64,000 bases of DNA from Bilabrum cf. latius (Eukaryota). The position numbers were made by a program, and so were the translations under genes. Shown here one piece after another: positions 7,591 to 64,000 of this stretch. Location of the stretch: assembly GCA_965178125.1 (NCBI GenBank), contig OZ237754.1, positions 310,001 to 374,000 on the forward strand, in the 5' to 3' direction. The notes below the pieces were generated by a model. It was not told where the DNA came from. It saw only the letters and a list, made by a program, of their open reading frames with translations, and did no database searches. The stretch's first letter is position 1, and each line of letters begins with the position of its first letter.

Positions 7591-9266
7591 TCTCAAACGA
7601 CCAATTGCTCTCTGTTGTGATCGGTGGCAGTCAAGATAAGTTCTGATTCTTACTGCGAGGGAGTACCAGACGCCCCCTGGGTTCGTGTTTCGGCTCAAAA
7701 GGCCACTGTCAGCCGACTGTATTAGAAGTTCACTAAATGTGTTAGTGTCTGATCTGTAGGCTGCTTCTACGAGGGCATCAATTTGTCTGCACCAGGAATT
7801 GCGAGGTAGCTACCCACGGGAACGACTGCGAATTCACAGTGACTAGGACGAGCCTGGCGACAAATAAGTCTCTCACACATCAACATCGGACTTCTGATGA
7901 ATAGTTTTGGGCGTGGACCGAGATTTTCTCATGTTCGAAAGCCTCTCTGTCCGGTGCTGCTGCAAGCCACATGACCGTGCAGTGCAACAGGATCGGTCTC
8001 CGGATCACTGATGAGATCCGTGTAGAGCAGGCGCCACAGGGGACCACTGCCGAGGTGGACATGCCTTCGGCAGTGGCAGATGTGCCATCAGAGGACAGGA
8101 CAGAACAGAAGCCACTACCGCCAACGAGCGGTCGCTTGGATCTCTCAGACCGGGAGGAGCGCACCGGCCAATGTCGAGGCAATGCCAACAGTTGATGAGC
8201 CCGGAGGCAGACGCAGAGGCACATAGCTAGGGCAGGATTGCGTTGGAAGCACAGCAAGAACAGCGCGGCCTGGTGGCCGGTACGATAAGACGGGCTGGTA
8301 CTGGCTAGGCATGGACAGCGGAGGTAGCAGGGGTGGGACATCGCCTGATGGCAACGGTAGGGCAAAGCGAGTCAGCATCGTCAGGCGACCTGGCCAAACC
8401 GGCGGCACACTCCAGGATGCACCCGCCGCCCTACGTCGTGATCGAGCTGAGATAGATAGACGAGGGCTGCAGGGGTGGGCTCCAGTGCACACGGGCAGCG
8501 CAGATGCCCCACGCTGCTTGCCGTGGAATTTGACCAGCAAGAACGGTCCGCCTTGGCAGTGGACGTGTCGCATCCTTCAGCATCGAGCTGGAGTACTCCC
8601 GGGACAGCTTACCAGGGAGTTTTGTGAGGAAGCATGGTCTGCCTGCTAGGTGGGAGGTCCGCGTGGAGGCTGCACTTCTTCAGAATGCTGCCCTTGCTTG
8701 GCAATGGGCTGAGCTGGTAGGGGTGCTTGGAGCGGGCAGCGACGGGGCGACTGCCAGTGGGCGCAGGCAGCGGAGACGGTCGCACCCGGAAAATTCAGGC
8801 ATGAAACAGGCGGGATGCACTTCTTAGAGGTACGGCACGTTCGCACCTGCATACAGTGCAGACGGCATGCAGCGTCGACGGACCATTGTGGGCCACCACC
8901 AGTCTTCATTGCATCAATCATGATTTGGCTTCCGATTCGGAATCGCGAGCTACGCGAAGAAAGTCAAACAATCAAAGGGCTGAGTTTAGCGGATAGGATA
9001 TTTATATTAATCTAGCCCCGAGACACTGGTTGATCCCGCCTGAATCACCAGATTTCTCGTTGAACTGGCGTTGGCACCTAGTATTGGTTCGAATTGAATC
9101 GCTCGCAATGCGGTAGACCCAAAGTTGGGCCAATAACGTGTGGCAATCCGCTAGATCATTGGACTACAATCGACTAAAATCGGTTGCAATTCCGGCAGAA
9201 AGTGAAATTTTCAAGATCATCAATTCTCGACAGACCGTAGTCTAGGCTCTATGCTCTGCCTTTTAC

Positions 9267-12260
9267 ATGTCTACTCGCTCGCTATCGTACCGCCAAGCGA
9301 CGTCCATAGGGGTACCACAGGAGAGATTAGATCATTTTTTCCGCCTGGACAAAAGTCACATCGACCCTGCCCCGTATCTCGTAGATTCTGTGGAGGAGCT
9401 AACGGAGTACGTGCAGCAATCCACCGACGATTGGGAGATGTTCCGAGGCATACCATGCCCGTCTAGTGATTATGATGATGCATTTGATATGACACCCGAA
9501 GAGGAGACAGGTCCACGGGTGGCCAAAAGCTCCAAAGGACAGCTGGTCATCACTCTAGCGGAGGCCAAGCGTAGATTCGGCGCTTGCCTTCGTCTGATCA
9601 TGCGAGCATGCGGTGGCGTCAAATCGAGATATTTCGCCCTGTCACTACACCAGGTCATCTATCGGCACCAATCGGACCGGCCGTGCGGCATCGGAATGCC
9701 TCCTCACCCCTTGCTTCTTGCCCTCGGTCGGAACCTGCCAGGCGTGCCAGAGATGATCCGCGCGATCTCCAGACAGGTGGACGGAAGCCGAGAACTGTCC
9801 CGCGACTTCTAGTCCTACTCCCTATTGTGCGATAAAACATCTGGAATGCCGTTCCTCCGCAGCGCCAGGATCCCAGGCACCGACCACGGCCTCCTTGTCC
9901 TGGCCGCTAGATCAGGGTGCGTGGAGGGCATGAAGGCCCTGAGGGCTCTGGACGTCGACATGAGGGCGGCGGGGGCGGCCCTACACGAGGCGTGCAAGTC
10001 ATCACAACCCGCTTGCATTCGGTTCTGCATCGATAACATCGGGCTGAAGCTTGGCAGCATTGGAAGCATGCGCAGGCGGCGGCTGGCGATGCTGAGCAGG
10101 CAGGCACACGGGTTCACCGGGTTCGACCTGCTCGTTGACTCTTACGGCATGGGCGAAAAGCTGACTCCGGCCTAGTGGAGAACAAAGGTCGTGCAGGCTA
10201 TTGAGGGCAAGCAGCAGATCCTGCTCTCTTTAGCAAAAAGGGGCCACAGACCAGACCGAGGAGGGCTCTAGGCGGCTGGCTTGGACCTGGCACAAGCTGG
10301 GCGTAACCTGCTCTTGATCGCCATTAAGTCTGACCTGGGATTTGATGCCGCGCTCGACATTTTCATCAGCATGAAATGGGCCTGGCAATTCATCGCGGCG
10401 GCGCTGGGCGAATTCAACCAACCGGAGTGTCCCACCCCGCTGTGGGAGAGCCCGCCTATGCCAAGTGCCCTCTAGGCCCGCAGGATCTATCGTGCTACAG
10501 AGAGCCTGCTACGACGCGGGCTGATGGATCTCAATTAGATCATTGCGCGCATTCGATCGTCTCCGGACATGCGGTAGTTTGAGCTGGTTTGCAGACACGG
10601 GTACCAGTTGGACTACGACATGTTCCAGGCGATGCTGAATCACTCTGTGAAGGAATCAAATCCCAGGGCTCGATGCCACTGGCATCGGTGCTGGAGCAAC
10701 CGATGGGGTATTCCAGGGAGCATACGGGAGCTGCTTGCATCGTATCGTGTCGAAGCCCCGGGCTAGGGCTAGGTACCGCTGGGTTCCTGTGTGGCATTCG
10801 CGATCATCTAGGCCACGGATTACGACGGCCAGTCCGAGGCAGTCAGAAGACTGAACCACTGGATCATTCCAGGGGCGGCCATGCGAGCTGCTATATCGGA
10901 CGGGCACATGCAGGCGATATTGTCCACCCCCAGGGCGATTGGTGCCGAGTTCGAGGGGCGACTGTCGCTGCTGGCCCTTGCCACTGCGCGGAACCTACCC
11001 GTAGTAGCTGCCTTCCTCCTTCTGCGAGGAGCGAAGCTACACCCAGATCACGATACAAAGGCACCGGCAAAGATTGACGCGCTATTCGAGCCGCACGGGT
11101 GGGAAGACGATATAGACAGTTATGAGACTTCCATGGGGCTGCTCGAAGAGGGGGACATGGCTGGTCTGCGACGGCACCTGTTGGATAGGCAGCAGGTGCT
11201 CAGACAAGCAATCTCTGCCATGGGTGGCAGTCTCACGAGGCGGTAGCAGCTGTCACGATGGCGCACCGCGCGTCGAGTATCGCTGGCAGTGCAGCGCGGC
11301 TGGCAGTGCGCCAGGGAGGGTGACATGGGGAGACTCAGGCTGGCGATTCGACACGGGGCGAGGGGAGGCCTGCTGCAGGAACGGCGGGGGATGTTAGTTC
11401 GGCGAGTGGAAGCAGTAGCAGCAGCCAATTGCACCGGTGGAGATGCTGCGGGGCACGAATACGCGAGCGATGGGTGCACCTTGCTGATGGCCGCTGCGGC
11501 CAGCGGCCGCACTGACATCACCAGAGCGTTGCTGGCGCTCGGCACGGACCCCAGGGAATCCAGCGATGACGGTGCTACTGCTGCAGTATGGGCACAGCGG
11601 GGGGGATCGGCAGAGAGTGCGGCCGTGCTTCGAGAGGCTGAGGGGACGTTCGCCAGGATGGCGCGACTGAGCGCCGAAGCCACCGCAGCTCTCGAGGCGC
11701 TGCAGCGAGCCAGGCTGCTGGAGCCCAGTCCGAATACCAAGCAAGCGCTGGAGATGGGTCGCATGGCGGCTGAAGACAGGATCAGCGCGGCGTGGGGGGG
11801 CCGACGAACGATGCTGGTAAGGCACGGACATGCATGCGTGCGAGTGGTTCTCGGGTGGGGGGAGGGGCCCGCGGTTGTCTGCAGCTCACAGACGTTGGGG
11901 GGCTCCCAAAGGCTGGCAGTAGCGGACCGCTTGGGTCAATCCCAGTCCACCAGCAGTGGCGCGCTGGAAGAGAGCCTGGGCAGGGTTTGCCTCCCGAACG
12001 GCGGGAGAGTTGGCTTCAATGCCGGGATGCCGCAGTGGGAGCACTCCGGGGGCGTCCTGCTGAAGAGGAAGCGCGCCAGGCACACGGCCAAGCAAAACTA
12101 GGAGGCACCGCAGGCAGTTCACCGCGCAGCGACGCAGGTGCAAGAAAGGCCCCACAGGATCGCAGCCAGGAGACCGGTTAGGCGAAGCGAGCCTGGCGTG
12201 GCTCCGCCGCGCCGTGCGATTCTGCCTTCCGTGCTACGAGCCAAGGCCCCTCCGTTCTGA
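9267..12260 (+). CDS. Large ankyrin-repeat-containing protein (~900-1000 aa, TAG=Gln)
   Basis: Five ORF-track pieces share one frame interrupted only by TAG (10 before 11816). Ankyrin-like LLVLAARSG, ALHEACKS, DGCTLLMAAAASGRTDITRALLALG. A possible intron at 11817-11884 makes the C-terminus uncertain; unspliced stop is TGA 12258-12260. Confidence 0.7.
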
Positions 12261-15155: not shown

Positions 15156-16078
15156 TTATTCCCCCGTCACGATGCCCCTCACGAATGCCTCGATGCCCTC
15201 CGGCCCATCGGAGCGCAGGGACCGGATCACGGCGCTTCCCATCACAGCCCCGTCCGCAAACCCGCTCACGCTCTTGATGTGCTCGTGCGTGCTGAGCCCG
15301 AAGCCCACTGCCAGCGGCAAATCCTCCCCTACTGCCTTCCTCACCCTGCCCATGAATGCTCCCAGGCCGGGGGGCAGCTCCGTGCGAGCGCCCGTCACTC
15401 CCGTCACAGACACGCAGTAGATGTATCCCTTGGCGCACTTGGCGACGGTTGCCAGTCTGGCATCCGTGCTGGTGGGCGCAACGAGGGGCACGTAGGCGAG
15501 CGAGTGCTTGTCGCACGCCTCGAGGAATTTCGTGGCTTCCTCGGGCGGCACGTCGACTACGATCATCCCGTCGATGCCAGCTACGAGCAAAAGCGAGTTC
15601 GAGTACGGTGAAGCTATACATAAATCCATGCTGCAAGGTGATTGTAAATGGCACCGACGCTGCTCTTCTCACCCTTTGCGCAATCCTCTCCAAGCTGGGC
15701 CTCGCCGTAACGCAGGAATGGATTCGCATACCCCATCAAAATCACTGGCTTGGTCAAACCTTTTGCCCTGGCCTCTTCCACGTACTTCAGGGTCTTTTTC
15801 AATGTGATTCCATTCTTCAGAGCGACCATGTTCGCTGCTTGGATCGTCCCGCCATCCGCCAGTGGATCAGAGAAAGGCATTCCAAGCTCAATCACATCTG
15901 CCCCGCCCTTCTCCATTCCAAGGAGCACATCTACAGTGCTGTCTAGCTTAGGGAAGCCTGCTGTCACGTACGGAATGAACGCTGTTCGTCCTTCCGCCTT
16001 GCAGTCAGCGAACTACTTCAGTACCCTCGCAGATCCTGCGAGAGCATCCTATCCTGCGGCAGCACCTGATCCTGCCAT
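15156..16078 (-). CDS. trpA: Tryptophan synthase alpha subunit (stand-alone)
   Basis: join(16078-15673,15580-15156) with a 92-nt GTGAG...TAG intron. Motifs AFIPYVTAGFP, IELGMPFSDPLADGGTIQ, LMGYANP, VVDVPPEE, YCVSVTGVTG, AVGFGLS, DGAVMGSA. Two TAGs near the N-terminus; ends TAA followed by TGA. Confidence 0.95.
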
Positions 16079-16264
16079 GCTAATTTAATTTTAAATCAAA
16101 TGAATTGCAAGGCTGACTGGATCGTATACTAGCCGCTTCCGGAGCTTCGATAAAAGGTGCTAGCGGTTGCAACCAATCGAATGGAATTTGTGATGAACGT
16201 TCTCTCAGGTTCGATCTTTCGCAGCTGTTGCGCGAAAAACCTTCAAACCCAAGCTTAGGCCACC

Positions 16265-19200
16265 ATGGAGCACGACCGCGTCCTTTCTCGTACCCAGTAT
16301 GACAAATTAGTGCAACAGTTGGCTATGGAAAACAACGTTTCTACTGAGACGTATGAGGAAGCTCTACTGGCACACGCACAGTATCTGGGTCTGATGGAAG
16401 AGTCTGATTGGCCGTACTACGGAATAGTGGCGGAGGCTTTGACTGCTCCTGTGCCAGAAGGATGGGATACACAAACCGATGGGGAGGGTAATGTCTTTTA
16501 TCTGAACTTGCACACGAATGAGACGTCTTGGTTGCACCCGATGGATAATGAGTACAAAGAACGTTGCTAGAGACTGAAGCAGATGCACGAGAATGGCGAG
16601 GTGGATATGGAATCCGATGATTCTAACGCAGGCACTGGAGGGCATGCCTCTGCAACGCACGGGAAGGCCGAGGAACCAAACCCGGCTGAAGACGACGACG
16701 ACTCGAATGGGGACAACCCTGGTTCTGCTCCTGCTAGTGGACCATTGCTGGCGGATGCACTTGGTGGACATGCAGCATCACATCCACACACAGACCCTCG
16801 CGACCAAGAATTGCGGGAAGGCGCTGGCGTGAGCCAACGGCCCGACGACGACAGGAGGGAGCACCCGCACTACCAGGCCGGCTCTCGATGGGGCAAAGCA
16901 GAGAGTCCCGTGGCGAATCAGTCCATCGAGCGTCCCTTGGGGGGAATGGACTCTAGAATCGACGGGTCTGCTCATTCCTCTGTGCCGAGCAGCCATGTGG
17001 ACTCGGGTGCCGCCATCTCCCAGGAGGCAGCACGTGCAGTGGAAGCGTCGCGACGAGAGCAGCAGCAGCAGCAGCAGGGGCAATAGGGGCGGTATCACCC
17101 GCAGCCTGGTGCAAACGATGACGATGATGCCGATAGCCTCGACGACGAAAGTTTCCCCGCGCCAGGCCAAGGACAGGGGAAGGGCCAGGGCCAGGGCAGC
17201 CGTCGTGCGCGGGAGCAGAACCAGGCGCGCAGCCGTGAGTCGGGGAGCATAGTCCAAGGAGCTCCGTCCGGCAGGACTTTTGATCGGCAGAGGGAGGCAG
17301 GTGTGGCTCCACGAGGAGGCCTGCTCAGCACCCAGGGGGGCGGGCACAATGCCCCGGATACCCCGGGCGGGCTCTCCGACATCTTGAACGGGGAGATGGA
17401 CTCTGACCTGTTCGAGTCACCCTCTCCCGCTGGGGCAGCCAAGCGTGCCCCGGGCCAAGGAGGGCAGGGTGCTCCCTTGCACGACGATGATGTTGAGGAC
17501 GGCTCCGGGTCTGACGGGGGCATGCCTCCGGCCCCCGGTCAGCCAACTGACGGTGGGGGCAAGATGGGAGGTGCTGCTCTTGCAGCGGCCATGCTGGCCA
17601 GCGTTGACGAAGATGACGAAGATGAGGGCCAGCATGCCTCAAGCGCGGACTAGCGCGATCCGCATGAAGCTGCGACAGAGGCAGGCAGTGCTGGTGGTCA
17701 TGGGAAGCAGCATGCCACTGCATCGGCCGACGAGGAGCCCTAGCAGCCGTAGTTGCCGACAAAAGACAAGGCAGGCAGTGATGCTAAGCGCAATCTTGCG
17801 CTGGATGCTAGCTTCATGGGGATCGGAGAGGAAGGGTAGAGCGAGGACGAAGACGGCGACGCGGAGTCTAGCTTTGGCACGGGGGCCGCGACTAGCCAGC
17901 CCCAGTCGACGGCGGCGACTCCAGCAGCAGTCCAACAGGCCAAGCCAGCTCAAACCGCGGAGCATGTTGAGGAGGTGCGAGCACTCGAGCAGCAGCTGCG
18001 TTCCATGCAAGATGAAGTGCGTGCATTGCGAGCGCAATCCAAAGAGGCCAAGCAGACCCGGGCCAAGCTGCGAGAGGTCGAGGCGGAGCTCAGGGACCTG
18101 AGGGCCAGCAATGCGGCCGCGTCCTAGTCTGGTGACAGGGCGGTTCAGGACCTCCGACAACAGCTGGAGGAGGTCCAGCAGCAACACCGCCGGTCGACTG
18201 AAAAACTGCGGGTGGCCGAAGAAGGGAGTAAGGAGCAGGAGGACCGCGCCAGGGAATGGGAGGCCAAGGCTTCCTCCGAGGGCCGGCGGGCCCAGCGGCT
18301 GCAGGCCGAGCTGGAGGCAGAGACGCAGAGGGGCAAAGAGGCTGACAGGGAGCTCGACGTCGCGAGGTCGCGGCTCGCAGAAGCCACGAGGGCGCAGGGA
18401 GCAGCGGCGGGCGCGGCACAGGACGAGATCGAGCGTCTCCGCGGTGAGCTCTCCTCGGTCAAGTCCGAGCTCGAGCGGTCCACCCGCCGAGCCGCAGAGG
18501 TCAAGGACCAGGCGATGGACGAGGCCCAGGCGCTGCGGCTCAAGGCAGAGGGGAGCGCGCAGGAGGCGGAGCGGCGCACGCGGGAATCAGCCACTGCCAA
18601 GCAAGAGTGCAAGGCCCTGCAGGCCAAGCTAGAGGACACCAGGCAGCAATCGTCTCAGAAGGAGCAGGAGCTCAGAGATGAGGTCGCTGCTCTGCAGAGA
18701 AACAGCGATGAGCTGAGAGCCTAGCTATCGGCGCAGAAAGTCACGTCTTCGGAAGAATCGGCCAGGGCGCAGCGGCAGACCCACGAGCTGGAGCGCCAGG
18801 TGGCGGACCTGGAGGCGCGGCTGGCCACAGAGATAGAGTCCTCCAAGCAGCAGCAGCAAACCGTCAAGGAGGCCATGCTGCGGGCGCAACAGGAGAGCGA
18901 GCACCGGGTGGCGGGGCTTGAGCGGCAGCTGAGGGACGCCCAGGCGGAATCCGACGGGCACCGACGCAAGGCGGAGGCAGCCGCTCAGGAAGCCGAGGTC
19001 GCTCTCGAGAGGGAGAAGAGGGAGCGGGCTGCTGAGGTGTCCTCTCTGCGATCCAAGGCCAACAGCAGCCTGCAGCAGGCAGTGGAAGATGCCGAGAGCC
19101 GGGCGCAGGCGTCGAGACGCACGCTTGAGGCTACCATCGAGGCGCAGGAGCAGGAACTGCGGCGGCTCCGAGACGAGTCTACCCGCACGCGGGTGCAGCT

Positions 19201-21094
19201 GGACGCCGCGAGGCAGCAGCTCGAGGACGAGAAGTCTGCCCGTGCCAAGGCAGAGCAAGCAGAGCGCCAGGCGAGGGCCAACGCCGACAAGGAGATCCGG
19301 CAGGCCGCGTCTGAGATCGACGCAGCCATGAGGGAGGTGGAGGCAGAGAAGAGCGGCAGGGAGAGAGAGTCCAGCAATCTGCAGGCTGAGCTCGCTGGGG
19401 CGCGCGAGGAGGCCGGCGCCGCCCAAGACCGCATCAAGCAGCTGCAGCAAGAGGCTGCGCAGATGGCCCAGGCCCTCCGCGAGGCGAATGCGGACGCGCG
19501 CCTGGCCCAGGCAGAGCATTCTCTCCGCGAGGAGAAGCAGAGGTCAGACAGGCTCCGTGCAGTAACAGATGGCCAGCGGGCAGAGCTGAGAAGGGTGCGG
19601 CTGGACTACGAGGCTCGTTTGAAGCAGCAGGTAGACGGGGCCAAGGATAGGGTCAGAGAGGCAGCGGACGCAGCCGCGAGCGCCGCGGAGCAGCGGACCC
19701 GCGCAGAGCTGGAGGCGCGGCTGGCTTCTGCGGAAGAGGATGCAAAGGCCGTGCGGTCTCGGCTGGCCGCACTCACCAAAGAGCTGGACGAGTCCTCTGC
19801 GGAGGCTCGCAGGAAGCTCTCGGCCGAGACAGCCCGACTCGAGGGCGAGCTGCGCGCCGCGAGGGCAGGATCAGAAAGGATGGCTTCCATGCTGCAAGCG
19901 CGGCTGGGCGAGGGGAGTGCGCTGGGCGGCGGCGGCTCAAACACGCACTCGGGCATGCTGGCGCTGCCGCCACCCCCAGTGCAAGATGGAGGCAGGCAGG
20001 TCTCCGTGGAGCCGCCGCGCGTGCCAGGCCACCAGTCCGCACCAATGCCATCTGGAGCTCAGTAGGAAGCTGCGAACGCGCGTCGAGCAGGTGAACCCGC
20101 ATTGGGAGCGACCGCGCGTGCGTATGCATGGCCAGTGCGCGCTCTGCCGCCGCGGGCCGAGTAGGCCTCGCTGCACGCCAGTGGCCTCGCAAGCAGGCTA
20201 GAGCAGTCCCTTGGCCCCTTGCGGTCGTAGCTGAGGGCGGCTATGCGAGAGGCAGCCACGCCAGGGTCCAGCTTGAAGAGATCGTCGCAGATGAGCGGCT
20301 CTCGCGGCGGCGGATTCGGCGAAAACGCAGGGGAATCGAAGGAGCAAGACCATGGGTACTATGGCCAGGGCGGAGGCTCAGGCAGCCAGGAGCTGCCACG
20401 GGAGGTACTCAGGCAGACGCAGGCCGAGCAGGGGCTGCAGCATGGCGTTCAGCCGGGATGGGCCGGCTTGGATGCAGACGGCCGCCATGCACGGTAGGAG
20501 GACTATGCCCTGATGGCCTTTCAGGAAGACAGGCGTAGGTAGGCAGAGGCCAGGGCCAGCGCAGCGAGTCAGTCGGGTGCGTGGGCTGGCAGCATGGACG
20601 GGGGTTCCGGAGCAGGGTTTGGTTACGGCGGGGGTGTGGTTCCCCTCCCCATGTCTGCGGTGCGGCAAAGGCACTCGGACGGCAGCATGGCCGGCTCCTT
20701 CATTGGACGAGCAGCCGACGCGTCTTCGCTCGGAGACGCTTCTGCAGGGGACGATGCCAGCCTCTACAGGGCGGCAGGCAGCGGTCCTGAAGTGCTCGGG
20801 CTGGCCAGAAAGCTCGAAATGTCGCAGGCCGCGGTGGACGTGATGGAATCGATGAGAGACGGGTGGATCGGAGGCTTGCGCGGCGATTCAACTGGTCGGC
20901 AACGACGGTCCAGTGCGGGTGCGCAGAGCTTCGCGGGCGCCTCTGGGATCGGACCAGCGGCTGAGTCGGGCGGGCTAGAAGCGAGCTTTGCCAGCGCAAG
21001 AAGTGGCGCAGCTGGTGGAGTCGGGCTGGTGAACGGAGCCCCCCTGTCGGCGAGGAAAGGGTACTTCGAGGGCAAGTACGGGAGGAGAGGATGA
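16265..21094 (+). CDS. CEP164: CEP164-like WW-domain plus long coiled-coil protein (1609 aa, TAG=Gln)
   Basis: One frame from ATG 16265 to TGA 21092-21094 with 13 in-frame TAG and no TAA/TGA. N-terminal AQYLGL...EALTAPVPEGW...GNVFYLNLHTNETSWLHPMD matches the CEP164-type helical-WW module; E/A/R/Q coiled coil at ~17950-19900. Orthology is inferred. Confidence 0.7.
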
Positions 21095-21219: not shown

Positions 21220-24057
21220 TCACGTGCTGCGCTCTCCCTCCCCGCCAAGATTTGCGCCATCATCCGCACCAACACTGCCAGCGGCCCCGCTGCTGCCATC
21301 CTCGGCTGCACCTTTGCGGGCACTGCTGCACCTCGCGAGGGCGGCCGTGATGGAGGACGCCCCCTTTGCCTGCCTGCTCGATCCAAAGAGGGCCACATTG
21401 AGCACTTTGGCAACCCTTGAGCCGAACTGCACCGCGCGCTTTGGCAAAAGCGCGCTTTCGCCTAGCCCGAGCTGGACTGCGACCAAACGCAGCACCCGCT
21501 TGTCTCCCTGACCCCGCTCTAAGCCGGGGTCCAATATCCTATCCACAGGGATGCGTGACAGCGCACCCAGCACGCCCTCGTCCAGGAATGGCAGCCGGAG
21601 CTCCCTCCCGTGGTCGCTTACAATCCTGTCGTCTCTGCCGAGGTTTCGGGCCCACAGCCGATCCACATCCATAGATAGCTCTGACGCGACCGCGGCCCAG
21701 CCCCCTCTCGACACCGCAGTTGCATGCCTGCCGTACCCGCCGCACAGCTCGTCTGCCCCCAGGCCAGAGAACACAACGCGAGCCGAAGACACAAATCGAC
21801 TATCTTCTATCGCATCGCGCACAGCAGCCACGGGACATGATTCAACAAGCCCGGCCGATGAGAGGTCTGCAGCAGTTGCCAGTCTCCCTGTTCCCGAGGC
21901 GGCGTGCCATATCGCCATACCAAGAGACAGGTCCATGTTGGTACATCTTGGCCACAATAAGGTCGCCACGTGAAGCATGGTCTTCTTGACGTCGTCAGGC
22001 GAAACGTTAACAAGGACGAGTCGCCACTCTCTCTCCGGGCACGACCGTCGGAGCTGCATCCACGATTGCAGTGCGGTTTTCCTGTCCGGAGACTGATGCT
22101 CTGGATAGTCAAAGCAGGCCGACAAAAGGTCAATTGGCTCCCCCGGTGGAAGGAAATCGTGTGCAAGCCTGGCAACAATGGTGCAATCGAGGCCCCCGCT
22201 AAACAGGACGGCCAAGCGAGAGGGTGCAAGTGATCTTGCAGCTGCTGCAGCAACAGTTTCCGACTCTGCACTGGCCGCGATGGGTGCTGCAGCTCTTTCC
22301 AAAGGTGACGCGCCTCCCAGATCTGGGGATGCGGCGACAGAGTCTCTCGGCAGCTCTGGCCCAATGGGCGGCCTAGCCACTTCGGAAGCGGAGGGCTCCG
22401 TGTGACTAGGGTCGGGGCAGTGTGTGACGCGCCGCTGCACAGCCAGTCGAAGGGCTACCATCGTTGCGTCTCTAGCACGGATCCAATCACCGGCCAACGC
22501 CAGTGAGTCGTTCTCACAAGCACCTGGGCTTGGGCTGCTGGTTTCACAAGCACCTGGGCCTGTACTGCTGGCTTCACTGCTACGGCCAGACGATACCGTT
22601 GCTACATCGGTTGTGCTCACAGATGCTGGTTTGAGTGCTCTGCCTTTGCTCACTGCGGCTCCCCCCTTACCCCTTTGGTCAAGTCTCACAATGTCTGGTC
22701 TTGCCACGGATGCACGTGTAGGTCGCCACAGCGGCAGCCCGCGCCGCAGATCGACACAACAGAAGCCAAGCACAACAGCCGCGGTCTCCCTACCTACATC
22801 TGATACGCTTGAATGCTTCTGGTCCTCGAGTGACAGTGGCAATGCAACGTCCCCGGGGTCTGTCACCAAGCCAGGTTCTCTGCTTGCTGCAGGACCCAGT
22901 GCTTTACCCCAATCGATGCTCATGGCTCTGACTGAGAGCGGTGGCTTGCAAATGCTGCTGTCTCCGAGCGCAGCCCAGCAATGACCAGCGCCAGCACCAT
23001 TACCATCACCAGCACCAGCACCAGCACCAGCACCAGCACCAGCACCAGCACCAGCACCAGCACCAGCACCAGCACCAGCACCAGCACCAGCACCAGCACC
23101 AGCACCAGCACCAGCACCAGCACCAGCACCAGCACCAGCACCAGCACCAGCACCAGCACCAGCACCATCACAAGCACCTGCACCTGCACCTGCACCTGCA
23201 CCTGCACCTGCACCTGCATCTGCACCTGCACCTGCACCTGCACCCGCACCAGCATCAGCACCAGCACCAGCACCAGCACCAGCACCAGCCCACCCGCAAG
23301 CCATCACCCAACCAGCAGGGATCTCCTGCCAACGCCCCCCGCATGCCACCACATCCAAGTTGAGGTCTCTTGCATCTGTCATGAGTGGTTCTTCGATCAA
23401 TGCTGCTGTTGGTACAACATCCCCTGCCCCGCCGAGGCCCCCACATACAGAGCTTGCTGCCGGGGCGGGGTGCTGGACGCTGCTTGACTGGCGGGTTATC
23501 CTCGCGATTCCTGACAGCTCTGGAAGAACGACGCTAGATACTATGACTGGTTCGTGTGTCTCGTGACCGGCGCGTGGCAATCGAAGCAGCAGGCTCCTTC
23601 TGCCAACTGCACCCCGCCCAAACACAACGCTGCTGGTAGCGGTGTCTACCACGCAGGCTGCCCAGGGACCAATAACCGAGTCTAGAGCCTGGGCGATAGC
23701 CAAGTGCGACTCTTTCTGTGATGCTGCCTCCGTAAGGCGCAGTTCAACGCTGTCTCGAATCGCAGCAGTATCACTTGTTTCGGTTCCGAGGCCCCAGGCT
23801 TCGCCGTTCCAGGCAATTCCACCGCTACGCGACATGAACCCCAGAGGCTATGCGGATATCACCCCGGTCTTGGAACGTTGCATGGAGAGCACTGATGCTA
23901 TCATAACTACTCGGGTACCATTCGCAAGCTTCCATTCACGAAAAGACATGTTGTCCGGTCCTCGCGAGCGCAACGCGCGGCGGGCCTGCTCGCATACGTT
24001 TTTGACCAAATCGTCTGGGCAGTCCTGAGGAATAATCAATAAAGTCACTCCGCACAT
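21220..24057 (-). CDS. ASNSD1: Asparagine synthetase domain-containing protein 1 (Ntn domain plus Asn synthase domain)
   Basis: Starts MCG at 24057, with LRSRGPD. One TAG (23848-23850) joins it to WNGEAWG, GRRSLL, AVLFSGGLDC, SPDRKTA, GLGADELCGGYGRH, RNLGRDDR, RLPFLDE, GDKRVLR, PKRAVQFGSR. TGA stop. Confidence 0.9.
22985..23289. repeat. Hexanucleotide microsatellite (GCACCA)n/(GCACCT)n encoding poly-(Gly-Ala) inside ASNSD1
   Basis: About 50 tandem 6-mers seen directly; in frame on the minus strand. Confidence 0.95.
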
Positions 24058-25703: not shown

Positions 25704-27595
25704 ATGTCCATTACAACGGAGGAGGTTAATTTGATGATATTTAGGTACTTGCAGGAGACGGCTCATGAGCATTCAGCTTTTACCTTTGCGCATGAAGCAA
25801 GATTAGCGAGATCGTCGGTAGCTCTGGCCAACATACCACCAGGGTTACTAGTTGAACTCCTTTAGAAGGGCCTGCAGTATGCTGAGATGGAAAGAGAGAT
25901 CGTGGCGGGAAACACAGACCCTGAAGTGCCCAAGCCGCCTGCTGGGCTCACAACGATTTTTAATGCAAGCCCTAGATCAGCGTCATACTAGGCTGAGTTG
26001 TAGTCAAAGTCACAGGCTGAATCAGGTGCGGGCGCTTCGTCGGCTGCGATGAAGGACGACGAAGACGATACCAGCGAAGCCGAGGCAAGCAAGCGAATAC
26101 AGTCGCTAAAGCTTCTAGAGACTAGTCCTGTCGTTTTGGTTCGTCGCCCAATGAGCAGTGTTGCCGCAGTCTGGTAAGTCGCGGCCACCCAAACGCGCGA
26201 GCATCGGGAGTTAGCAGCATGTGCTGTTCGATGAACCAACCACTCCCGCCACAATTGGCTTATCATGATGGCCTTTCCCCCGCCTCGCAGTGGGACCGAC
26301 GGCAGCATCGTGACTGTTGATACAGGCGCATCTGACCGCAAATCCACGATTATACGCCTGCAGCTGCCGGACCGCCCAGCCGCTGTGCAGGCCAGCGTCG
26401 ACGCCATGCGTGCCAGGGCCGTCGCAGCTGCCTCTGGCAGCACTGCCTCGAAAGCAGGCACAGCGGCAGCCTCCGGTGCCTCTTCCTCCTCTTCCGCTGC
26501 AGCCTCGTCCTCATCGACTGGCGCCGCGCAGGGTGCTCTAGATGCGGTATCGGCGACTGCATTCGACGAAGTCACTGACCTGTCTTGGAGCGTGAGACGT
26601 CCGGAACCGACTCGCTCTCGCTGGTTGCCAGCATTCGATGACACTGCCTGCGTGTAGACACTTGATCTTGCACGCTGGACTTTCGCATTGTTTTGTGATG
26701 TGCCTCTTGTCCTCTTTTTGATCTCTCGCAGCCTGACGGCAAGTACATTGCAGCTGCAGCAGCAGATGGCAGGGTGGTGGCTTGGCAGTCCGACAGCAAG
26801 GAGGCCGCGGCCACCATGATCGGACACAGCGGGCCGTGCATGGGAGCGCAATTTAGTGCAACAGGAGCGTACCTCGGCAGCTACGGCTCCGACGGGCGAG
26901 TGGTGATCTGGGACCCTGATGACTGGACGAGGCACAGCGTGGTGTCGGTGCACGGCGCAGCCGTGCTCGGCTTTGGCTGGCAGACTGACTCTGTGTTTGC
27001 GACCTGCTCGGCAGACCGCATGGTGTATCTGCACCGTCTGGGCAACAAGAAGCCGATCAGGACGTTCCAGGGGCACGGGGCGGCTGTCACCACCATGGAG
27101 TGGGACGGCGGGCGCAGCTTGCTCGCGACTGGATCGGACGACACGTCGGTGCGCATCTGGTCCCCCAAGGAGGGCCTCGTGGCCTGGCTCACGGGGCACG
27201 CGGAGGAAATAGCCGACATTTCATGGTCTCCTGTGGGCTTTGACGGGAAGAAGGCGGACAAGACGCAGCAGCCCGCCATCGCCAGCTGCTCCTTTGATGG
27301 CTCGGTGAGGCTGTGGGACGCCAAGTCAGGGAGGTGCTCGGCGCGGATTGCCGCGCATAGCTCCATGGCGTGCTCTGTCGCCTTCAGCCCGACCGGTGCA
27401 ACGATTGCGAGCGGTGGCGCGGATGGCGACCTGGTGATCTCCTCCCTTGCAGACGGGCGGATCGCGGCCAGGATCCACCTCGATGCCCCCGTGCACTCGG
27501 TTATGTGGGATGGCAGGGATGCCGACAGGGCCATTGCTGCGCTCTCGGATGGAACCATTGCATGCGTGAACTTGAGAGCAGGAAAAGCAGAATGA
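25704..27595 (+). CDS. TBL1: LisH plus WD40 protein, TBL1/SIF2-like
   Basis: join(25704-26173,26291-26591,26732-27595). MSITTEEVNLMIFRYLQE..HSAFTF...IPPGLLVELL(TAG)KGLQYAEME matches the TBL1 N-terminus. WD repeats (FATCSAD, FQGH, LATGSDDTSVRIW, IASCSFDGSVRLWD). TGA stop. Confidence 0.88.
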
Positions 27596-27720: not shown

Positions 27721-30036
27721 TCACGAACTGCCGCTGCCAGAAGCTGCCTCGCTGGTTCCGTCATACGCGTGCACCACTCTCGCGAACACGTCCTCCAGCG
27801 TCACTTGCCCCACGCCCCAGTCCGTGATACCACCCTCCCTAGCATTGTCGTGCATCAGCCTAAACATGTTCGACAAGGGCATGCCACCCGTGGGGACCAG
27901 GAAGCTCGCATACCCTTGGTAGTCTTGGTCGATGCTAGCTGTAGGGAACAGCCTAGCGATCAGACCAACCGCTCGCTCCCTCCCCAGCGCCTTCCCACCT
28001 CGCTCGGGAACCCCTGCAGCCGCTGCACCTGCAACAACTGCGCCGCCAGAGTCGCGCTCGTAGTTCACAAAGAGTCTGTAGCCTTGTCCGAATCGGTTGC
28101 GCAGCGATTGTGGGGTGCCAATCACGCGCACCCGCCCATCGCAGACTATAGCAATCCTGTCGCTCAGCAGCTCGCACTCGTCCATCGAGTGCGACGTCAG
28201 CACCATGCTTCTAGGCCTGCCAGTGTGGGACGGGAGGCGTTTGGCCCGCTCAATGACTCTCCACAGGCGCCGCCTAGAGGCGAGATCCAGCCCCGCAGTG
28301 GGCTCGTCCAGGTAGGAAAGCACCGACCTGCCCGTGAGGCTGATGGCGGTGGAGAGCCGACGGCGCATGCCTCCGGACAGCTGGCCCGCTGCGCGTTTGC
28401 GCACAGCAGCAAGGTCAACTGCCTCCAACTGGTTGTCAACTTCCACCTGCAGTCCCTCAGGCTCCACGCCCTTGAGCCTGGCATAGAAAAACAGGTGATC
28501 CTCTACGGACAGGTCGTCCCACAGCACGCTGTGCTACGGGCAAAGCCCAAGGGACAGGTGAACGCCTGTCGGGTCGCGATCGACGTGGTGGCCACCCACC
28601 CACGCATCGCCAGCAGTGGCTGGGATTGTCGCCGAGATGCAAGCAAACGAGGTGGACTTTCCGCACCCATTAGGCCCGACCATTCCCAGCACCTCCCCAG
28701 GATTCAAGGCGTAGTTCATATCCTGCACCGCCACTTTCAGGCCCATTGGAGTGTCGAATTCTTTGCGAAGAGCCCTGACAATCAGAGGTGCGGGCGCGGC
28801 GGCAGCGTGCCGATCCAGCGCACTGCCCGTCAGGCCGTCAAGGCCGGCTCGGACAGGTGCGGTGCCATCGTCCCCAAAACCCAACAGCTTCGCGATCCGT
28901 CTCCTCTCCTCTGTGACCATCGGGTCCTCTCCCCTCGCCTGCTCGAACGCATGCTGCTCGCTGCCAGCGTGGGGAAACAATCCAAGGAGTGGACGCCTGT
29001 CGTTCACCCGCAGCGGAGCAGAGTCACCGAGACACTACGCAGGTGACGGGGGCACCAGGCCACCCTATGAGGAGGCCAGGCCTGGCATGCCCCCCAGACC
29101 CACGCTGCCAACTGAGCCATCGTTGGTGTGGCTATTGGACAGCAGAGATTTTCTCATGTCGTCGGCAGAGTCCGAGTTTCCGGCTTCCTTCTCACCCTTG
29201 GAGCCTCCCGCAGAATTTCTTGCTCCGGAAGAGCGGCAGCTGCAGGTGCAATTGTTCTCCAGCCATCCGTGAGGCAAGCACCAGCGAAAGCAGCAGCAGG
29301 GGTGGGACGGCACCTGGTGCTCACCCGGGAGCACCTGTTCCAGGTAGACAGCCGCAGCCATGTAAATCACTGCATCGATGAATAACCATGCAATCACCCA
29401 GCGCATCTCTGTGCCGGCTGCGGTCGCCTGCGCAAAGTTGTCAAGGCAGTTTCCCTTAAAGATACACGCAAAGTTCATCAGGTAGATCCCCCTGCAGAGC
29501 GCAAAAATCGGCATAACATGCAGCCACGAGGGCATCCGAGCTCCGTACGAGAACGGCGGCACGTTGCCGTAGATTCCGTCTGCCAGAACTGTTCCTATCA
29601 GCGTGCCGAGCAATGCAACAGCATATCCAACGATGGTTGCCACGCGCCTGGAGCCCAGCAGTGATGCCACAAAGGCTGCCAGCGAGGTCAGCGCCATGCC
29701 CCAGCCGACAAAGAATAGCAGAAGCAGCAGCGGACTTGTGGAGAGGAAGAAACTGAAACGCAGGATCGCTCCGACGGCCCAGAAGAACCCCACCACACAG
29801 AGGTACATGCCCATGTTCAGCAGGTAGTTCGTCCCGAAGTACTCGTAGTCCCGCATGCCCATGGCGCGCTGCAGCTGCAAGAGTCCCGTCTCGCGCTCCA
29901 GAACGGTCGTGAAGCTAAATAGAGGGAGCTGCAGGGTCAGCCCGATGGGGTACAGGAACGCGCCGAACACCTGTACCAGGCTCTCCAGGTTCTGCACGAT
30001 ACGCTCCGGCATGGTTGCAACCACCTTGACGGACAA
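27721..30036 (-). CDS. ABCA: ABCA transporter, 3' part (TMD2 plus NBD2), separated from the 5' part by a mobile element
   Basis: One frame with TAGs at 29065, 29035 and 28534. VLERETGL...AMGM, Walker A GPNGCGKST, Q-loop LGLCP(TAG)HSVLW, LSGGMRRRLS, YLDEPTAGLD, LTSHSMDECE, TLEDVF. TGA 27721-27723. Confidence 0.92.
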
Positions 30037-30189
30037 AAACTGACATTGATTTGTACGTTACATCGAATCAGTTCTAGAACCTCCGGTTAGGGTTGCTAGA
30101 AAATGCGAGGGCGTGCTGGGCCCCGGCTCCTCGGGCGGTTGACCACCCGTGGCGCCACAAGGGGACCCGGCTGCTGGTGCAGCCTGCGC
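30035..30189. repeat. Split direct repeat B2 (155 bp)
   Basis: Identical by eye to 30915-31069. Confidence 0.95.
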
Positions 30190-32161: not shown

Positions 32162-32163
32162 TG

Positions 32164-36447: not shown

Positions 36448-36759
36448 CCCCGTTTGCGACACAATGTTAATAATAATCTTGATTTACGATTCACTAGCGG
36501 CCTTGCTATGGTTTTTGGGATGCAATACAAGCATAAGTCGAGTTGCGCAGTGTTGTGCCTTGACGTGCCGTGTGCGTTATGAAGCAGCGCCGGGTGAAAT
36601 GCACTCGCAGCAGACCTTTGGCAGCAACTATGCAATAAGTGCATATACCAGCGTGCGTTTGACATGGGTTATGTTTACTTTTTCCTTATAGGGATCAACC
36701 TGAGACGAACACATCCCGATTGCCCTTGGAGCCAGCCGATAGGCCTCTCGAAAACTTTT

Positions 36760-36857
36760 AAAACTTTTGCAAGCTGACTCAGAACTACACTACATTGTAG
36801 TACGTGTCTTCTTGAGCACTGCCGAGATCAGTATCTTCGGCGTACCCTCGGGAAGAT
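36760..36857. repeat. Split direct repeat A1 (98 bp)
   Basis: Identical by eye to 30745-30842 (aaaacttttgcaagctgac...ccctcgggaagat). Confidence 0.95.
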
Positions 36858-45210: not shown

Positions 45211-45381
45211 GCTGGGTGCTAGCTGGGTATTATCAGAGAATGCAGCTTCTGAATTTGCGCACGAGCAGCACTGTCGTGACGAGTGGCAGGCCGGCCGAGG
45301 GTGGGGCTGGAAGGCTGGCACGGCTGGCAGGCATGCAGAATCCGATGCATGCAGACACCCGCAGCACGAAAGCCCAGGGCC

Positions 45382-46527: not shown

Positions 46528-46837
46528 GCGACTCTGTACCGTCAGTTGTTGCTTTGACGCATTCTGAGCAAGGAATATGCATCAAGCAACCGGCGGCAAG
46601 TATGTGTACTGGTTGCGACCGCTTGCATTGAACTTTCAAGAAGAAGATTAAAACCGCTTGCACCTAGTGCCTGTCTTTGCGACGCCCGGGCATCAATTAT
46701 TGTTCGGAATATCTGGGTTGATCGTTACTTTTTTGATTGCCGATCTATTTATATTCGGATCCGAGCGGGCAGCATCAGCCTGGGCTAGCTTGCTGCTACG
46801 CACTTCGTGGAGCCTCCAACGGATTGATCACGTCGTC

Positions 46838-54212: not shown

Positions 54213-54344
54213 TTGTCTTGCAACTCGCATAATGTTGATCGGCGGAGCAGCTTAGCTGCAGTTGCACTTCGAATCACAAGATCCGAGTCGATCGCTGCGA
54301 CATCGAATGATGAAAACACATTGCCACACGCTTCCGACGCAGTC

Positions 54345-63900: not shown

Positions 63901-64000
63901 GAGATGCAGGGAACGAGTTCACAGCACGAGGTGGTTATCCAACCAGCAGAGGGGCTAGATCTAGTGGCCGTCGTCCAAGGAGCAGCATGTCTGGCCCGTC
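57975..64000 (+). CDS. Very large low-complexity protein with Cys/His zinc-binding-like motifs (partial, runs off the right edge)
   Basis: One frame free of TAA/TGA from 57900 to 64000 with about 11 TAGs. WSCC...GC and CRRCG..Y...CMYHP...FPCC motifs near 58670-58890. Start uncertain. Confidence 0.7.

What the first reader, a model, noticed from the sequence alone, without database searches (positions are those of the whole stretch)
16265..21094. Nuclear genetic code with UAG reassigned to a sense codon while UAA/UGA stay stops (applies to the whole window)
Seen: kilobase-long frames are broken only by TAG and never by TAA (13 TAGs here, 9 in 46838-52342, about 11 in 57900-64000, 10 in 9267-11816, 8 in ABCA; more than 60 in total). 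Recognisable genes end in TGA or TAA, with TAA at the expected C-terminus of trpA and ENKD1. TAG also occurs next to Gln codons (CAGx6 GGG CAA TAG at 17084; CAG TAG at 20063 and 54693). Established: UAA and UAG almost always change meaning together in nuclear codes; UAG-only reassignment (table-15-like) is rare, e.g. Iotanema spirale and a few ciliates. Inference: in a GC-rich, Cafeteria-like flagellate this would be an independent and possibly undescribed origin; I cannot confirm taxonomy or novelty from the sequence.
Basis: partly seen in the sequence, partly recalled or inferred. Interest (0 to 1): 0.95.

Follow-up and report, generated by a model that had tools for sequence, protein, structure and literature searches.

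The report
UAG read as glutamine, nuclear genome
This GC-rich protist chromosome piece reads the stop codon UAG as the amino acid glutamine while still ending genes at UGA and UAA, a rare kind of genetic-code change that a related organism from a metagenome shares.

Summary
Twenty gene frames hold 14,513 codons with 74 in-frame TAG and no internal TAA or TGA. TAG stands at conserved glutamine positions in four proteins: the ABCA Q-loop (156 of 158 homologue residues are Q), the ABCA N-terminus (30 of 30), an ASNSD1-like amidotransferase (72 of 95) and Q54 of TBL1. Spliced transcript contigs from three runs keep four of these TAGs unchanged, so they are neither edited nor spliced out. TAA is not a sense codon: about 20 would be expected from CAA/CAG usage and none is internal. 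Genes end in TGA (12) or TAA (2: trpA, ENKD1). A syntenic relative from a metagenome (L001) shows the same pattern. Opposite a TAG its orthologue carries Gln in 10 of 18 well-aligned columns, and Gln is the best-fitting amino acid by more than 12 log units. This is the table-15-type code (UAG=Gln). It is published for Iotanema spirale and a few ciliates, but here it sits in a GC-rich, UGA-terminating, apparently non-ciliate lineage. The suppressor tRNA, eRF1, taxonomy and peptide proof could not be tested.

The parts
16265..21094 (+). The finding's own gene: a 1609-codon ORF with a WW-like N-terminus and long coiled coils (the CEP164-like label is my reading). It runs from ATG to TGA with 13 in-frame TAG.
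   Evidence: No homologue was found in the large protein search. A 45%-identical syntenic orthologue lies in L001.
8805..12260 (+). Ankyrin-repeat protein frame: 1151 codons, 14 in-frame TAG (10 within 9267-11816), ends TGA.
15156..16078 (-). Stand-alone trpA in two exons, with a candidate 92-nt GT..AG intron at about 15581-15672. There are 2 TAG in the N-terminal coding part, and the gene ends in TAA at 15156-15158.
   Evidence: Pfam Trp_syntA matches profile positions 1-114 and 114-235. Intron candidates and stop codon. The X22 column is variable (A, A, V, T, T).
21220..24057 (-). ASNSD1-like glutamine amidotransferase / Asn-synthase-domain gene, ending in TGA. Its single TAG (23848-23850) lies at the conserved Gln-Pro site.
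   Evidence: Pfam. 72 of 95 aligned homologue residues are Q. The RNA-type contig X5 record 8 covers the codon unchanged. The site is also TAG in L001.
25704..27595 (+). TBL1-like LisH + WD40 gene: three exons, with GT..AG introns at 26173-26289 and 26592-26731, ending in TGA. TAGs lie at 25863-25865, 25989-25991 and 26001-26003.
   Evidence: Spliced contigs in runs X5, X6 and X7 carry 0 other letters. X54 aligns with Q of human TBL1X and with CAG in L001. Spliced translation.
27721..30057 (-). ABCA transporter, second half (TMD2-NBD2), ending in TGA at the homologous C-terminus. It holds 3 TAG, one of them at the Q-loop glutamine (28534-28536).
   Evidence: Pfam. The ABCA3 alignment has Q opposite X in both NBD alignments and reaches residue 1728 of 1748. 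156 of 158 homologue residues are Q.
36577..41298 (-). ABCA transporter, first half (TMD1-NBD1 and luminal region): a 1573-codon frame with 6 TAG.
   Evidence: Pfam, PDB. X684 falls in a variable column (M42, I26, S24, L15, N10, T7, Q7 of 158).
41178..41963 (-). ABCA N-terminal exon. The TAG at 41922-41924 lies in the conserved 'Q-L-x-x-L-L-x-K-N' start of ABCA proteins.
   Evidence: 30 of 30 aligned homologue residues are Q, with 11 gaps. phmmer against the PDB found nothing for this exon.
43696..46527 (-). TFIIS-like gene (43696-45381, 2 TAG, ends TGA) and NAD kinase gene (45382-46527, 2 TAG, ends TGA).
   Evidence: The TAGs lie outside the aligned regions.
46652..52342 (+). 1896-codon low-complexity / coiled-coil frame with 9 in-frame TAG, ending in TGA.
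52905..54212 (+). Enkurin-domain (ENKD1-like) gene with 3 TAG, ending in TAA at 54210-54212.
   Evidence: Pfam. The alignment reaches residue 343 of 346 of human ENKD1. X240 stands opposite A, Q and Q in three printed alignments.
54342..57071 (+). Two GH113 glycoside-hydrolase frames (54342-55925 with 1 TAG, and 56076-57071). The first opens with a signal-peptide-like N-terminus directly after the ENKD1 TAA.
57900..64000 (+). 2033-codon frame that runs off the window, with 11 in-frame TAG.

Best explanation
The window is nuclear DNA of a GC-rich (59.8%), intron-containing, flagellum-bearing eukaryote. Its translation system reads UAG as glutamine throughout, while UGA (most genes) and UAA (some genes) still terminate. 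This is the NCBI table-15-type code.

Shown: UAG lies inside real coding sequence, it survives into spliced mRNA, it sits at conserved Gln positions, it exchanges with CAG/CAA between orthologues of two related organisms, and UAA is absent from gene interiors but present at gene ends.

Inferred from established knowledge (Panek et al. 2017, PMC5304391; McGowan et al. 2024, PMC11687900): decoding is by a tRNA-Gln with anticodon CUA, one mutation away from tRNA-Gln(CUG). Such a tRNA pairs with UAG but not UAA. It would work together with an eRF1 that has lost efficient recognition of UAG but keeps UAA and UGA. Neither molecule could be examined here.
For: 1. Frames. 74 in-frame TAG lie in 14,513 codons of 20 gene frames, where 293 TAA+TGA would be expected at off-frame rates. 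Single frames of 1573-2033 codons are interrupted only by TAG.

2. Conserved columns. ABCA Q-loop: 156 of 158 Q. ABCA N-terminus: 30 of 30 Q. ASNSD1-like site: 72 of 95 Q. TBL1 X54 aligns with Q in both printed TBL1X alignments. ABCA3 has Q opposite X in both NBD alignments.

3. Transcripts. Runs X5, X6 and X7 carry intron-less joints (GT..AG, 87-140 nt) that DNA run X4 lacks. Their contigs cover the three TBL1 TAGs with 0 differences, and X5 also covers the ASNSD1 TAG.

4. Second organism. L001 is an 11.4-kb metagenome contig, syntenic with the window (CEP164-like, ASNSD1, VIT1, TBL1; 45-78% identity). It has frames of 1341 codons with 15 TAG and 1094 codons with 8 TAG, and no TAA or TGA in them. 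The residue opposite a TAG is Gln in 12 of 33 columns overall, 10 of 18 at local identity >=0.5, and 7 of 11 at >=0.75. These rates match or exceed ordinary Q-Q conservation in the same alignments (0.23, 0.36, 0.59). Gln beats the next amino acid (Lys) by 12.5, 14.6 and 9.4 log-likelihood units at thresholds 0.5, 0 and 0.75.

5. TAA. CAA is 21.5% of CAR codons, so about 20 TAA would accompany 74 TAG if UAR=Gln, and none is internal (binomial 1.7e-8). TAA ends trpA and ENKD1 and the ASNSD1 orthologue in L001.

6. TGA. TGA ends 12 genes. In ABCA it does so 20 residues from the end of human ABCA3 in the alignment.
Against: No tRNA gene lies in the window or in L001, no genome is held, and eRF1 is not in the window. 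The mechanism is therefore inferred, not shown. There is no peptide evidence.

Several TAGs fall in variable columns that say nothing, or do not show Q: ABCA NBD1 X684 (7 of 158 Q), trpA X22 (0 of 5 printed alignments), ENKD1 X130 (0 of 3) and ENKD1 X240 (2 of 3).

In the orthologue comparison 8 of 18 well-aligned partners are not Gln (K3, L2, S2, E1).

TAG is not enriched beside Gln codons.

The zero count of internal TAA/TGA is partly circular, because the frames were delimited by those codons.

RNA status of X5-X7 is my reading from their spliced joints and from missing cover over the ABCA gene. The tool labels them 'RNA?' and labels X5 'probably DNA'.

Only 64 kb plus 11 kb were examined. 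Rare use of UAG as a terminator, or of UAA as a sense codon elsewhere in the genome, is not excluded.
Confidence: 0.9

Rival explanations
1. Both UAA and UAG encode glutamine (the common table-6 code), and UAA is merely rare because the genome is GC-rich.
For: GC3 of the frames is 0.6-0.8, so A-ending codons are disfavoured. UAR codons change meaning together in most known variant codes (PMC11687900 Introduction).
Against: CAA still makes up 21.5% of CAR codons, which predicts about 20 in-frame TAA against 0 seen. TAA sits at the ends of trpA, ENKD1 and the L001 ASNSD1 orthologue. Frames read with TGA as the only stop gain just 28-76 codons past a TAA. The one long join, ENKD1+GH113, links two unrelated proteins, and the second has its own signal-peptide-like start.
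Confidence: 0.04
2. UAG has a double, context-dependent meaning: Gln inside genes and stop near the 3' end, as in Condylostoma or karyorelict ciliates.
For: Such codes exist (abstracts of PMC4967479 and 10.1101/2022.04.12.488043 in the listing). With only about 14 gene ends in the window, a minority of UAG terminators could be missed. The last TAG of the ankyrin frame lies about 50 codons before its TGA.
Against: No gene in the window needs UAG as its terminator: 12 end in TGA and 2 in TAA. Wherever homology is available it continues downstream of the TAGs, as in ABCA, ASNSD1, TBL1, ENKD1, NADK and TFIIS-like.
Confidence: 0.04
3. The TAGs are not translated. They would be assembly or sequencing errors, sites edited back to CAG in the mRNA, intron-borne, or nonsense mutations in pseudogenes.
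For: C-to-T errors or deamination would turn CAG into TAG. The ABCA second half has no transcript cover in the runs laid. The ABCA halves are separated by 6.5 kb of satellite and high-copy repeats.
Against: Contigs from four runs in three studies agree with the window at the TAGs they cover, with no differences listed there. Spliced transcript contigs keep four TAGs. The introns that exist are removed, and they do not contain those TAGs. Decay would produce TAA and TGA too, yet there are none in 14,513 codons. An independent metagenome contig from a relative shows the same pattern, with TAGs at different positions.
Confidence: 0.01
4. UAG is a sense codon for an amino acid other than glutamine (Leu, Ser, Glu, Lys or Tyr, as in other variant nuclear codes).
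For: UAG=Leu and UAG=Ser nuclear codes exist (PMC11687900 Discussion). Some partners opposite TAG in L001 are K, L, S or E. The NBD1 column is mostly M, I, S or L.
Against: All four conserved columns are Gln. In the likelihood ranking Q leads K by 9-15 log units, and leads every other residue by more.
Confidence: 0.01

Closest known systems
Iotanema spirale (Fornicata), nuclear code UAG=Gln with UAA kept as stop (Panek et al. 2017, PMC5304391; passages read)
   Same: The codon change is the same: UAG alone becomes Gln while UAA and UGA stay terminators, in a non-ciliate flagellate. The predicted mechanism is also the same, tRNA-Gln(CUA) plus an altered eRF1.
   Different: In Iotanema UAA is described as the dominant stop codon. 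Here TGA ends 12 of 14 genes and the DNA is 60% GC. Named best protein hits here are stramenopiles, a green alga and an amoebozoan, not metamonads. The eRF1 T32G change reported for Iotanema could not be looked for.
Ciliates with UAG=Gln only: Hartmannula sinica, Trochilia petrani, Protocruzia tuzeti (McGowan et al. 2024, PMC11687900; Introduction and Discussion read)
   Same: Same code, with widespread in-frame UAG at conserved Gln positions and no sign of a double meaning.
   Different: In those ciliates 86.9-98.3% of genes end in UAA and UGA is the rarest stop. Phyllopharyngean GC content is 27-54%. Here UGA dominates. The locus is a 64-kb multi-gene stretch with 87-140-nt GT..AG introns, a satellite array and high-copy repeats. 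No named hit in the listings I read is a ciliate.
UAR=Gln codes (NCBI table 6: many ciliates, Ulvophyceae, Hexamita, Streblomastix, Amoeboaphelidium; list from PMC11687900 Discussion)
   Same: UAG is read as Gln, presumably through tRNA-Gln derived suppressors.
   Different: UAA is also Gln in those codes. Here it is absent from gene interiors and ends genes.
UAG=Leu (rhizarian exLh, TARA phyllopharyngean MAGs) and UAG=Ser (Scotinosphaera), as listed in PMC11687900 Discussion
   Same: UAG is uncoupled from UAA.
   Different: The amino acid differs. The conserved columns here are Gln, not Leu or Ser.
Phage 'code 15' (TAG=Gln in crAss-like and Lak phages; abstracts only)
   Same: Same codon table.
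   Different: Those are low-GC phage genomes with late-gene regulation. This is a eukaryotic nuclear locus with spliceosomal introns and flagellar genes.

Membership tests
Nuclear code with UAG=Gln and UAA/UGA=stop (NCBI table 15 type) | In-frame UAG is frequent inside bona fide protein-coding genes | tested here: met
   74 TAG in 14,513 codons. 15 of 20 frames hold at least one, and 9 of those 15 have a Pfam match.
Nuclear code with UAG=Gln and UAA/UGA=stop (NCBI table 15 type) | UAG positions coincide with conserved Gln in homologues | tested here: met
   156 of 158, 30 of 30 and 72 of 95 Q, plus TBL1X Q54. Orthologue partners are Gln in 10 of 18 columns, and Q ranks best in log-likelihood. 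Four other TAG columns are variable and uninformative.
Nuclear code with UAG=Gln and UAA/UGA=stop (NCBI table 15 type) | UAA is not a sense codon and terminates genes | tested here: met
   0 internal TAA against about 20 expected. TAA ends trpA, ENKD1 and the L001 ASNSD1 orthologue. The test is limited to 75 kb of sequence.
Nuclear code with UAG=Gln and UAA/UGA=stop (NCBI table 15 type) | UGA terminates genes | tested here: met
   12 of 14 gene ends are TGA. The ABCA end aligns to residue 1728 of 1748 of ABCA3.
Nuclear code with UAG=Gln and UAA/UGA=stop (NCBI table 15 type) | UAG is present in the mature mRNA (not edited, not spliced out) | tested here: met
   Four TAGs are covered by spliced-run contigs with 0 differences. 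These are contigs, not raw reads, and the RNA status of the runs is inferred from their joints.
Nuclear code with UAG=Gln and UAA/UGA=stop (NCBI table 15 type) | A cognate suppressor tRNA-Gln(CUA) is encoded | not testable with these tools
   No tRNA in the window or in L001, and no genome is held.
Nuclear code with UAG=Gln and UAA/UGA=stop (NCBI table 15 type) | The eRF1 N-domain is altered so that UAG is poorly recognised | not testable with these tools
   eRF1 is not encoded in the window, and no genome or transcriptome can be searched.
Nuclear code with UAG=Gln and UAA/UGA=stop (NCBI table 15 type) | Peptides carry Gln at UAG positions | not testable with these tools
   No proteomic data.
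UAR=Gln code (table 6) | In-frame UAA at Gln positions | tested here: not met
   None in 14,513 + 3,390 codons of window and L001 frames. TAA stands at gene ends.
Context-dependent stop/sense codes (Condylostoma type) | The reassigned codon also terminates genes at their 3' ends | tested here: inconclusive
   0 of 14 gene ends need TAG, but the sample is small and transcript 3' ends were not seen.
UAG=Leu nuclear code | UAG at conserved Leu columns | tested here: not met
   No Leu at the ABCA Q-loop or N-terminal columns, and L is absent from the residues listed for the ASNSD1 column. L is not among the six best in the likelihood ranking.

The most novel reading that the evidence does not exclude
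A clade of GC-rich, non-ciliate flagellates, possibly heterotrophic stramenopiles, has reassigned UAG to glutamine independently of Iotanema and the ciliates, with UGA rather than UAA as the main terminator. Two members are sampled here: the window's organism and the metagenome relative L001, 78% identical in the TBL1 WD40 domain. This origin would not yet be described in print. It would be a UAG-only reassignment in a genome whose composition does not deplete UAG. That is hard to fit to codon capture under AT pressure. It points instead to a tRNA-Gln(CUA)/eRF1 competition route. The shared TAG at the ASNSD1 Gln-Pro site suggests the change predates the split of the two organisms.
Probability: 0.45. 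Interest if true: 0.8.

Novelty: new member of a known kind. Interest (0 to 1): 0.7.

Why it matters
Nuclear codes in which UAG and UAA mean different things are few. The 2024 review of cases that I read (PMC11687900 Discussion) lists UAG=Gln only for one fornicate and three ciliate lineages, all with UAA as the main terminator.

A further origin in a GC-rich, UGA-terminating, intron-bearing flagellate would add an independent replicate. That replicate would help test how UAG escapes its coupling to UAA, and whether codon capture or an ambiguous intermediate drives such changes.

There is also a practical consequence. Any standard-code annotation of this genome, and of relatives in metagenomes, will truncate most genes, since 15 of 20 frames here carry a TAG. 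Protein databases built that way will hold only fragments. This may be why the large protein search found no full-length relative of the finding's gene.

Tried and rejected
- **Whole genome.** None is held, so there was no genome-wide Codetta-type inference and no tRNA, eRF1 or rRNA search.
- **RNA families and tRNAs.** Rfam found nothing and ARAGORN found no tRNA in the window.
- **Homologues of the finding's own ORF.** None at E<=1e-5 among near-length proteins, and none in metagenome contigs.
- **PDB sequence searches that missed the TAGs.** The ASNSD1 N-terminus and the ABCA N-terminal exon found nothing useful. The NADK and GH113 alignments did not reach their TAGs.
- **Taxonomy.** The ESM Atlas look-up returned only generic WD40 clusters. 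Cluster names gave Nolandella (ABCA, 43%), Mucochytrium quahogii, Hondaea fermentalgiana, Achlya hypogyna and Auxenochlorella (ASNSD1, 42-49%). The ASL search added Aplanochytrium (65%) among mostly Chloroflexi-like hits. This is suggestive of stramenopile affinity and no more. A search for the TSA prefix of one hit found no paper.
- **Sequencing runs.** No RNA holder is listed on record. Transcript cover over the ABCA second half (27918-29939) was absent in X5-X7.
- **First read-laying request.** The part beside it was laid instead, so the finding's own 13 TAGs were not checked against transcripts.
- **'TAG next to Gln' enrichment.** Not supported. In that script one 135-codon trpA segment was out of frame.
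- **Codon table.** It had one training segment out of frame and is superseded. One search failed on a coordinate slip of mine.
- **Literature.** Searches found no report of UAG-only reassignment to Gln outside Iotanema and ciliates. PMC6733595 and PMC13768787 proved irrelevant on reading the matching passages.

Full report
**1. The observation**

The window is 64 kb at 59.8% GC. Stop-to-stop frames of at least 300 codons total 13,782 codons under the standard code. They total 27,120 if TAG alone is read through, and only 16,067 if TAA alone is.

Reading TGA through gives still more, 38,191 codons. Those frames are mostly overlapping, antisense or low-GC3 frames with 7-27 TGAs each. That is what a GC-rich sequence gives by chance. 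No frame with a Pfam match needs it.

| Frame | Codons | In-frame TAG |
|---|---|---|
| 16154-21091 | 1646 | 14 |
| 46652-52339 | 1896 | 9 |
| 57900-64000 | 2033 | 11 |
| 8805-12257 | 1151 | 14 |
| 36580-41298, minus strand | 1573 | 6 |

The quoted sequence contexts and the TAA ends of trpA and ENKD1 are also as stated.

**2. What the genes are**

Pfam and PDB sequence searches identify the following:
- Argininosuccinate lyase, and an ankyrin-repeat protein.
- A two-exon stand-alone trpA.
- An ASNSD1-like amidotransferase.
- A VIT1 iron transporter.
- A TBL1-like LisH/WD40 protein.
- An ABCA transporter in at least three frames.
- A TFIIS-like protein, NAD kinase and an enkurin-domain protein.
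- Two GH113 frames.

The finding's own ORF has a WW-like N-terminus and about 1000 residues of coiled coil. 'CEP164-like' is my reading, not a tool result. The large protein search found no relative of it.

This is a eukaryotic nuclear locus with genes on both strands and flagellum-associated genes.

**3. Frame statistics**

Twenty gene frames hold 14,513 codons with 74 in-frame TAG, and 15 of the 20 frames have at least one. The frames were delimited by TAA and TGA, so their absence inside is by construction. The informative figure is that 293 TAA+TGA would be expected in that many codons at the off-frame rates of the same DNA.

TAG makes up 11.2% of the putative Gln codons (74 TAG, 126 CAA, 460 CAG).

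**4. Which amino acid**

Four TAGs fall in strongly conserved columns, and all four are glutamine:
- **ABCA NBD2 Q-loop.** 156 of 158 aligned residues from the homologues are Q. Human ABCA3 has Q there in both of its NBD alignments.
- **ABCA N-terminal exon.** 30 of 30 aligned residues are Q, with 11 gaps.
- **ASNSD1-like Gln-Pro site.** 72 of 95 aligned residues are Q, among the 150 best representatives of an all-against-library HMMER search.
- **TBL1 X54.** It aligns with Q in both printed human TBL1X alignments.

Other TAGs lie in variable columns and say nothing:
- ABCA NBD1 X684: M42, I26, S24, L15, N10, T7 and Q7 of 158.
- trpA X22: A, A, V, T, T.
- ENKD1 X240: A, Q, Q. ENKD1 X130 stands opposite no Gln in the same three alignments.

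Gln codons are no more frequent around TAG than around random codons.

**5. Transcripts**

One read-laying run was possible.

Run X4 covers the single-copy part of the stretch (23300-30064) with one contig that has no joints and no differences, and behaves as DNA. Runs X5, X6 and X7, from two other studies, carry contigs with four intron-sized joints absent from X4:
- 26173-26289 and 26592-26731, GT..AG on the plus strand.
- 25123-25209 and 25292-25385, CT..AC, that is GT..AG on the minus strand.

These three runs also give almost no cover over the ABCA second half. I therefore read them as transcript data, although the tool labels them 'RNA?' and labels X5 'probably DNA'.

Joining the exons gives an uninterrupted TBL1-like protein and a VIT1 protein. 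The three TBL1 TAGs (25863, 25989, 26001) are covered in all three runs with 0 differences. The ASNSD1 TAG (23848-23850) is covered in X5 with 0 differences. So these TAGs are in the mature mRNA. They are neither edited, nor spliced out, nor assembly errors.

**6. UAA and UGA**

CAA is 21.5% of CAR codons. If UAA were Gln too, about 20 in-frame TAA should accompany 74 TAG, and none is internal.

To guard against circularity I re-drew the frames with TGA as the only stop. The frames gain only 28-76 codons beyond a TAA at their 5' or exon ends. The single long join fuses ENKD1 to a GH113 protein that begins with its own signal-peptide-like sequence.

Gene ends in the window are TGA 12 times and TAA twice (trpA, ENKD1). 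Where homology reaches the C-terminus it agrees: ABCA aligns to residue 1728 of 1748 of ABCA3, and ENKD1 to 343 of 346.

**7. A second organism**

A metagenome scan with the TBL1 WD40 exon found L001, an 11.4-kb contig at 57% GC that is 78% identical over 285 residues.

L001 is syntenic with window 16-27.6 kb:

| Orthologue | Identity |
|---|---|
| CEP164-like | 45% |
| ASNSD1-like | 51% |
| VIT1 | 68% |
| TBL1 | 68-78% |

L001 also has long frames broken only by TAG: 1341 codons with 15 TAG, and 1094 codons with 8 TAG. The first ends in TGA and the second in TAA.

Its TAGs are mostly at other positions than the window's, which allows a direct test. The residue opposite a TAG in the other organism is Gln at these rates:

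| Columns counted | Partner is Gln | Q-Q conservation in the same alignments |
|---|---|---|
| All | 12 of 33 | 0.23 |
| Local identity >=0.5 | 10 of 18 | 0.36 |
| Local identity >=0.75 | 7 of 11 | 0.59 |

With substitution frequencies taken from these same alignments, Gln is the most likely meaning. It leads Lys by 14.6, 12.5 and 9.4 log units at the three thresholds. The non-Gln partners at >=0.5 are K3, L2, S2 and E1. The ASNSD1 Gln-Pro site is TAG in both organisms.

The trait therefore belongs to a lineage, not to one assembly.

**8. Mechanism**

Shown: UAG is decoded as Gln in coding sequence, and UAA and UGA are not.

Inferred from published work: a tRNA-Gln with anticodon CUA reads UAG but not UAA, and is one mutation from tRNA-Gln(CUG). 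It would act with an eRF1 of reduced affinity for UAG (PMC5304391, passages of section 9; PMC11687900 Introduction and Discussion).

Neither component is in the window or in L001, and no genome is held.

**9. Comparison and novelty**

The code itself is known as NCBI table 15. According to the Discussion of PMC11687900, nuclear UAG-only reassignment to Gln has been reported in Iotanema spirale, Hartmannula sinica, Trochilia petrani and Protocruzia tuzeti. In the phyllopharyngeans 86.9-98.3% of genes end in UAA. PMC5304391 calls UAA the dominant stop in Iotanema.

The present locus differs in three ways:
- It is 57-60% GC.
- It uses UGA for 12 of 14 gene ends.
- It has ordinary 87-140-nt GT..AG introns, a 112-bp satellite and high-copy repeats within a long multi-gene stretch.

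Named best hits are labyrinthulomycetes, an oomycete, a green alga and an amoebozoan at 43-65% identity. This argues against a ciliate or a metamonad but does not place the organism.

Seven full-text searches found no report of this code outside those lineages. Supplements were closed, and many journals are not in the library.

I therefore file it as a new member of a known kind, with about even odds that the lineage's code is undescribed.

**10. Verdict**

Taxonomy, the tRNA and eRF1 basis, and peptide proof remain open.

Noticed in passing
window 33361-36448; also 31577-32165 and 32979-33327: A 112-bp satellite of 27.6 copies (95% matches) is open in several frames and strongly A-over-T skewed. 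It is flanked by two arrays of a 107-bp repeat. It lies between the two halves of the ABCA transporter gene.
   Followed up: partly
window 29940-33300: Contig depth in the DNA run is 6-29 times that of the neighbouring single-copy DNA (289-1355 against 46.5), with many loose ends. The T at 30526 reads C in all four runs. This looks like a dispersed high-copy element. The two frames I scanned there have no Pfam match.
   Followed up: partly
window 27721-42002, minus strand: The ABCA transporter is spread over at least three frames. Its TMD1-NBD1 and TMD2-NBD2 halves are separated by about 6.5 kb of satellite and repeats, and the second half has no transcript cover in the three RNA-type runs. 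Whether it is one gene with a giant intron, two genes, or a disrupted gene is open.
   Followed up: no
window 23007-23167, minus strand: A GA/GC microsatellite is translated in frame as a run of about 100 Gly-Ala residues inside the ASNSD1-like protein, between its amidotransferase and synthase domains.
   Followed up: no
window 2215-3810: The argininosuccinate lyase is 67-70% identical to proteins named as Chloroflexi/Chloroflexota enzymes and to a few protist transcripts (Aplanochytrium 65%). One Logan-derived protein is 98% identical, a close strain or species. A TAG lies 41 codons upstream of the likely start.
   Followed up: partly
window 15156-16078, minus strand: trpA stands alone, with no trpB found in the window, and carries one short intron. 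Two candidate GT..AG introns, of 92 or 74 nt, fit the frames.
   Followed up: partly
window 54342-57071: Two GH113 (beta-mannanase-type) frames lie in tandem, separated by 150 nt. The first has a signal-peptide-like start. They may be one two-domain gene with an intron, or two paralogues.
   Followed up: no
L001 1-11365 against window 16154-27595: Gene order and orientation (CEP164-like, ASNSD1-like, VIT1, TBL1) are conserved between the window and a metagenome contig whose proteins are only 45-78% identical.
   Followed up: yes
window 42001-44000: The lowest GC content in the window (0.479 against about 0.60 elsewhere), lying between the ABCA start and the TFIIS-like gene. No gene was assigned there.
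   Followed up: no
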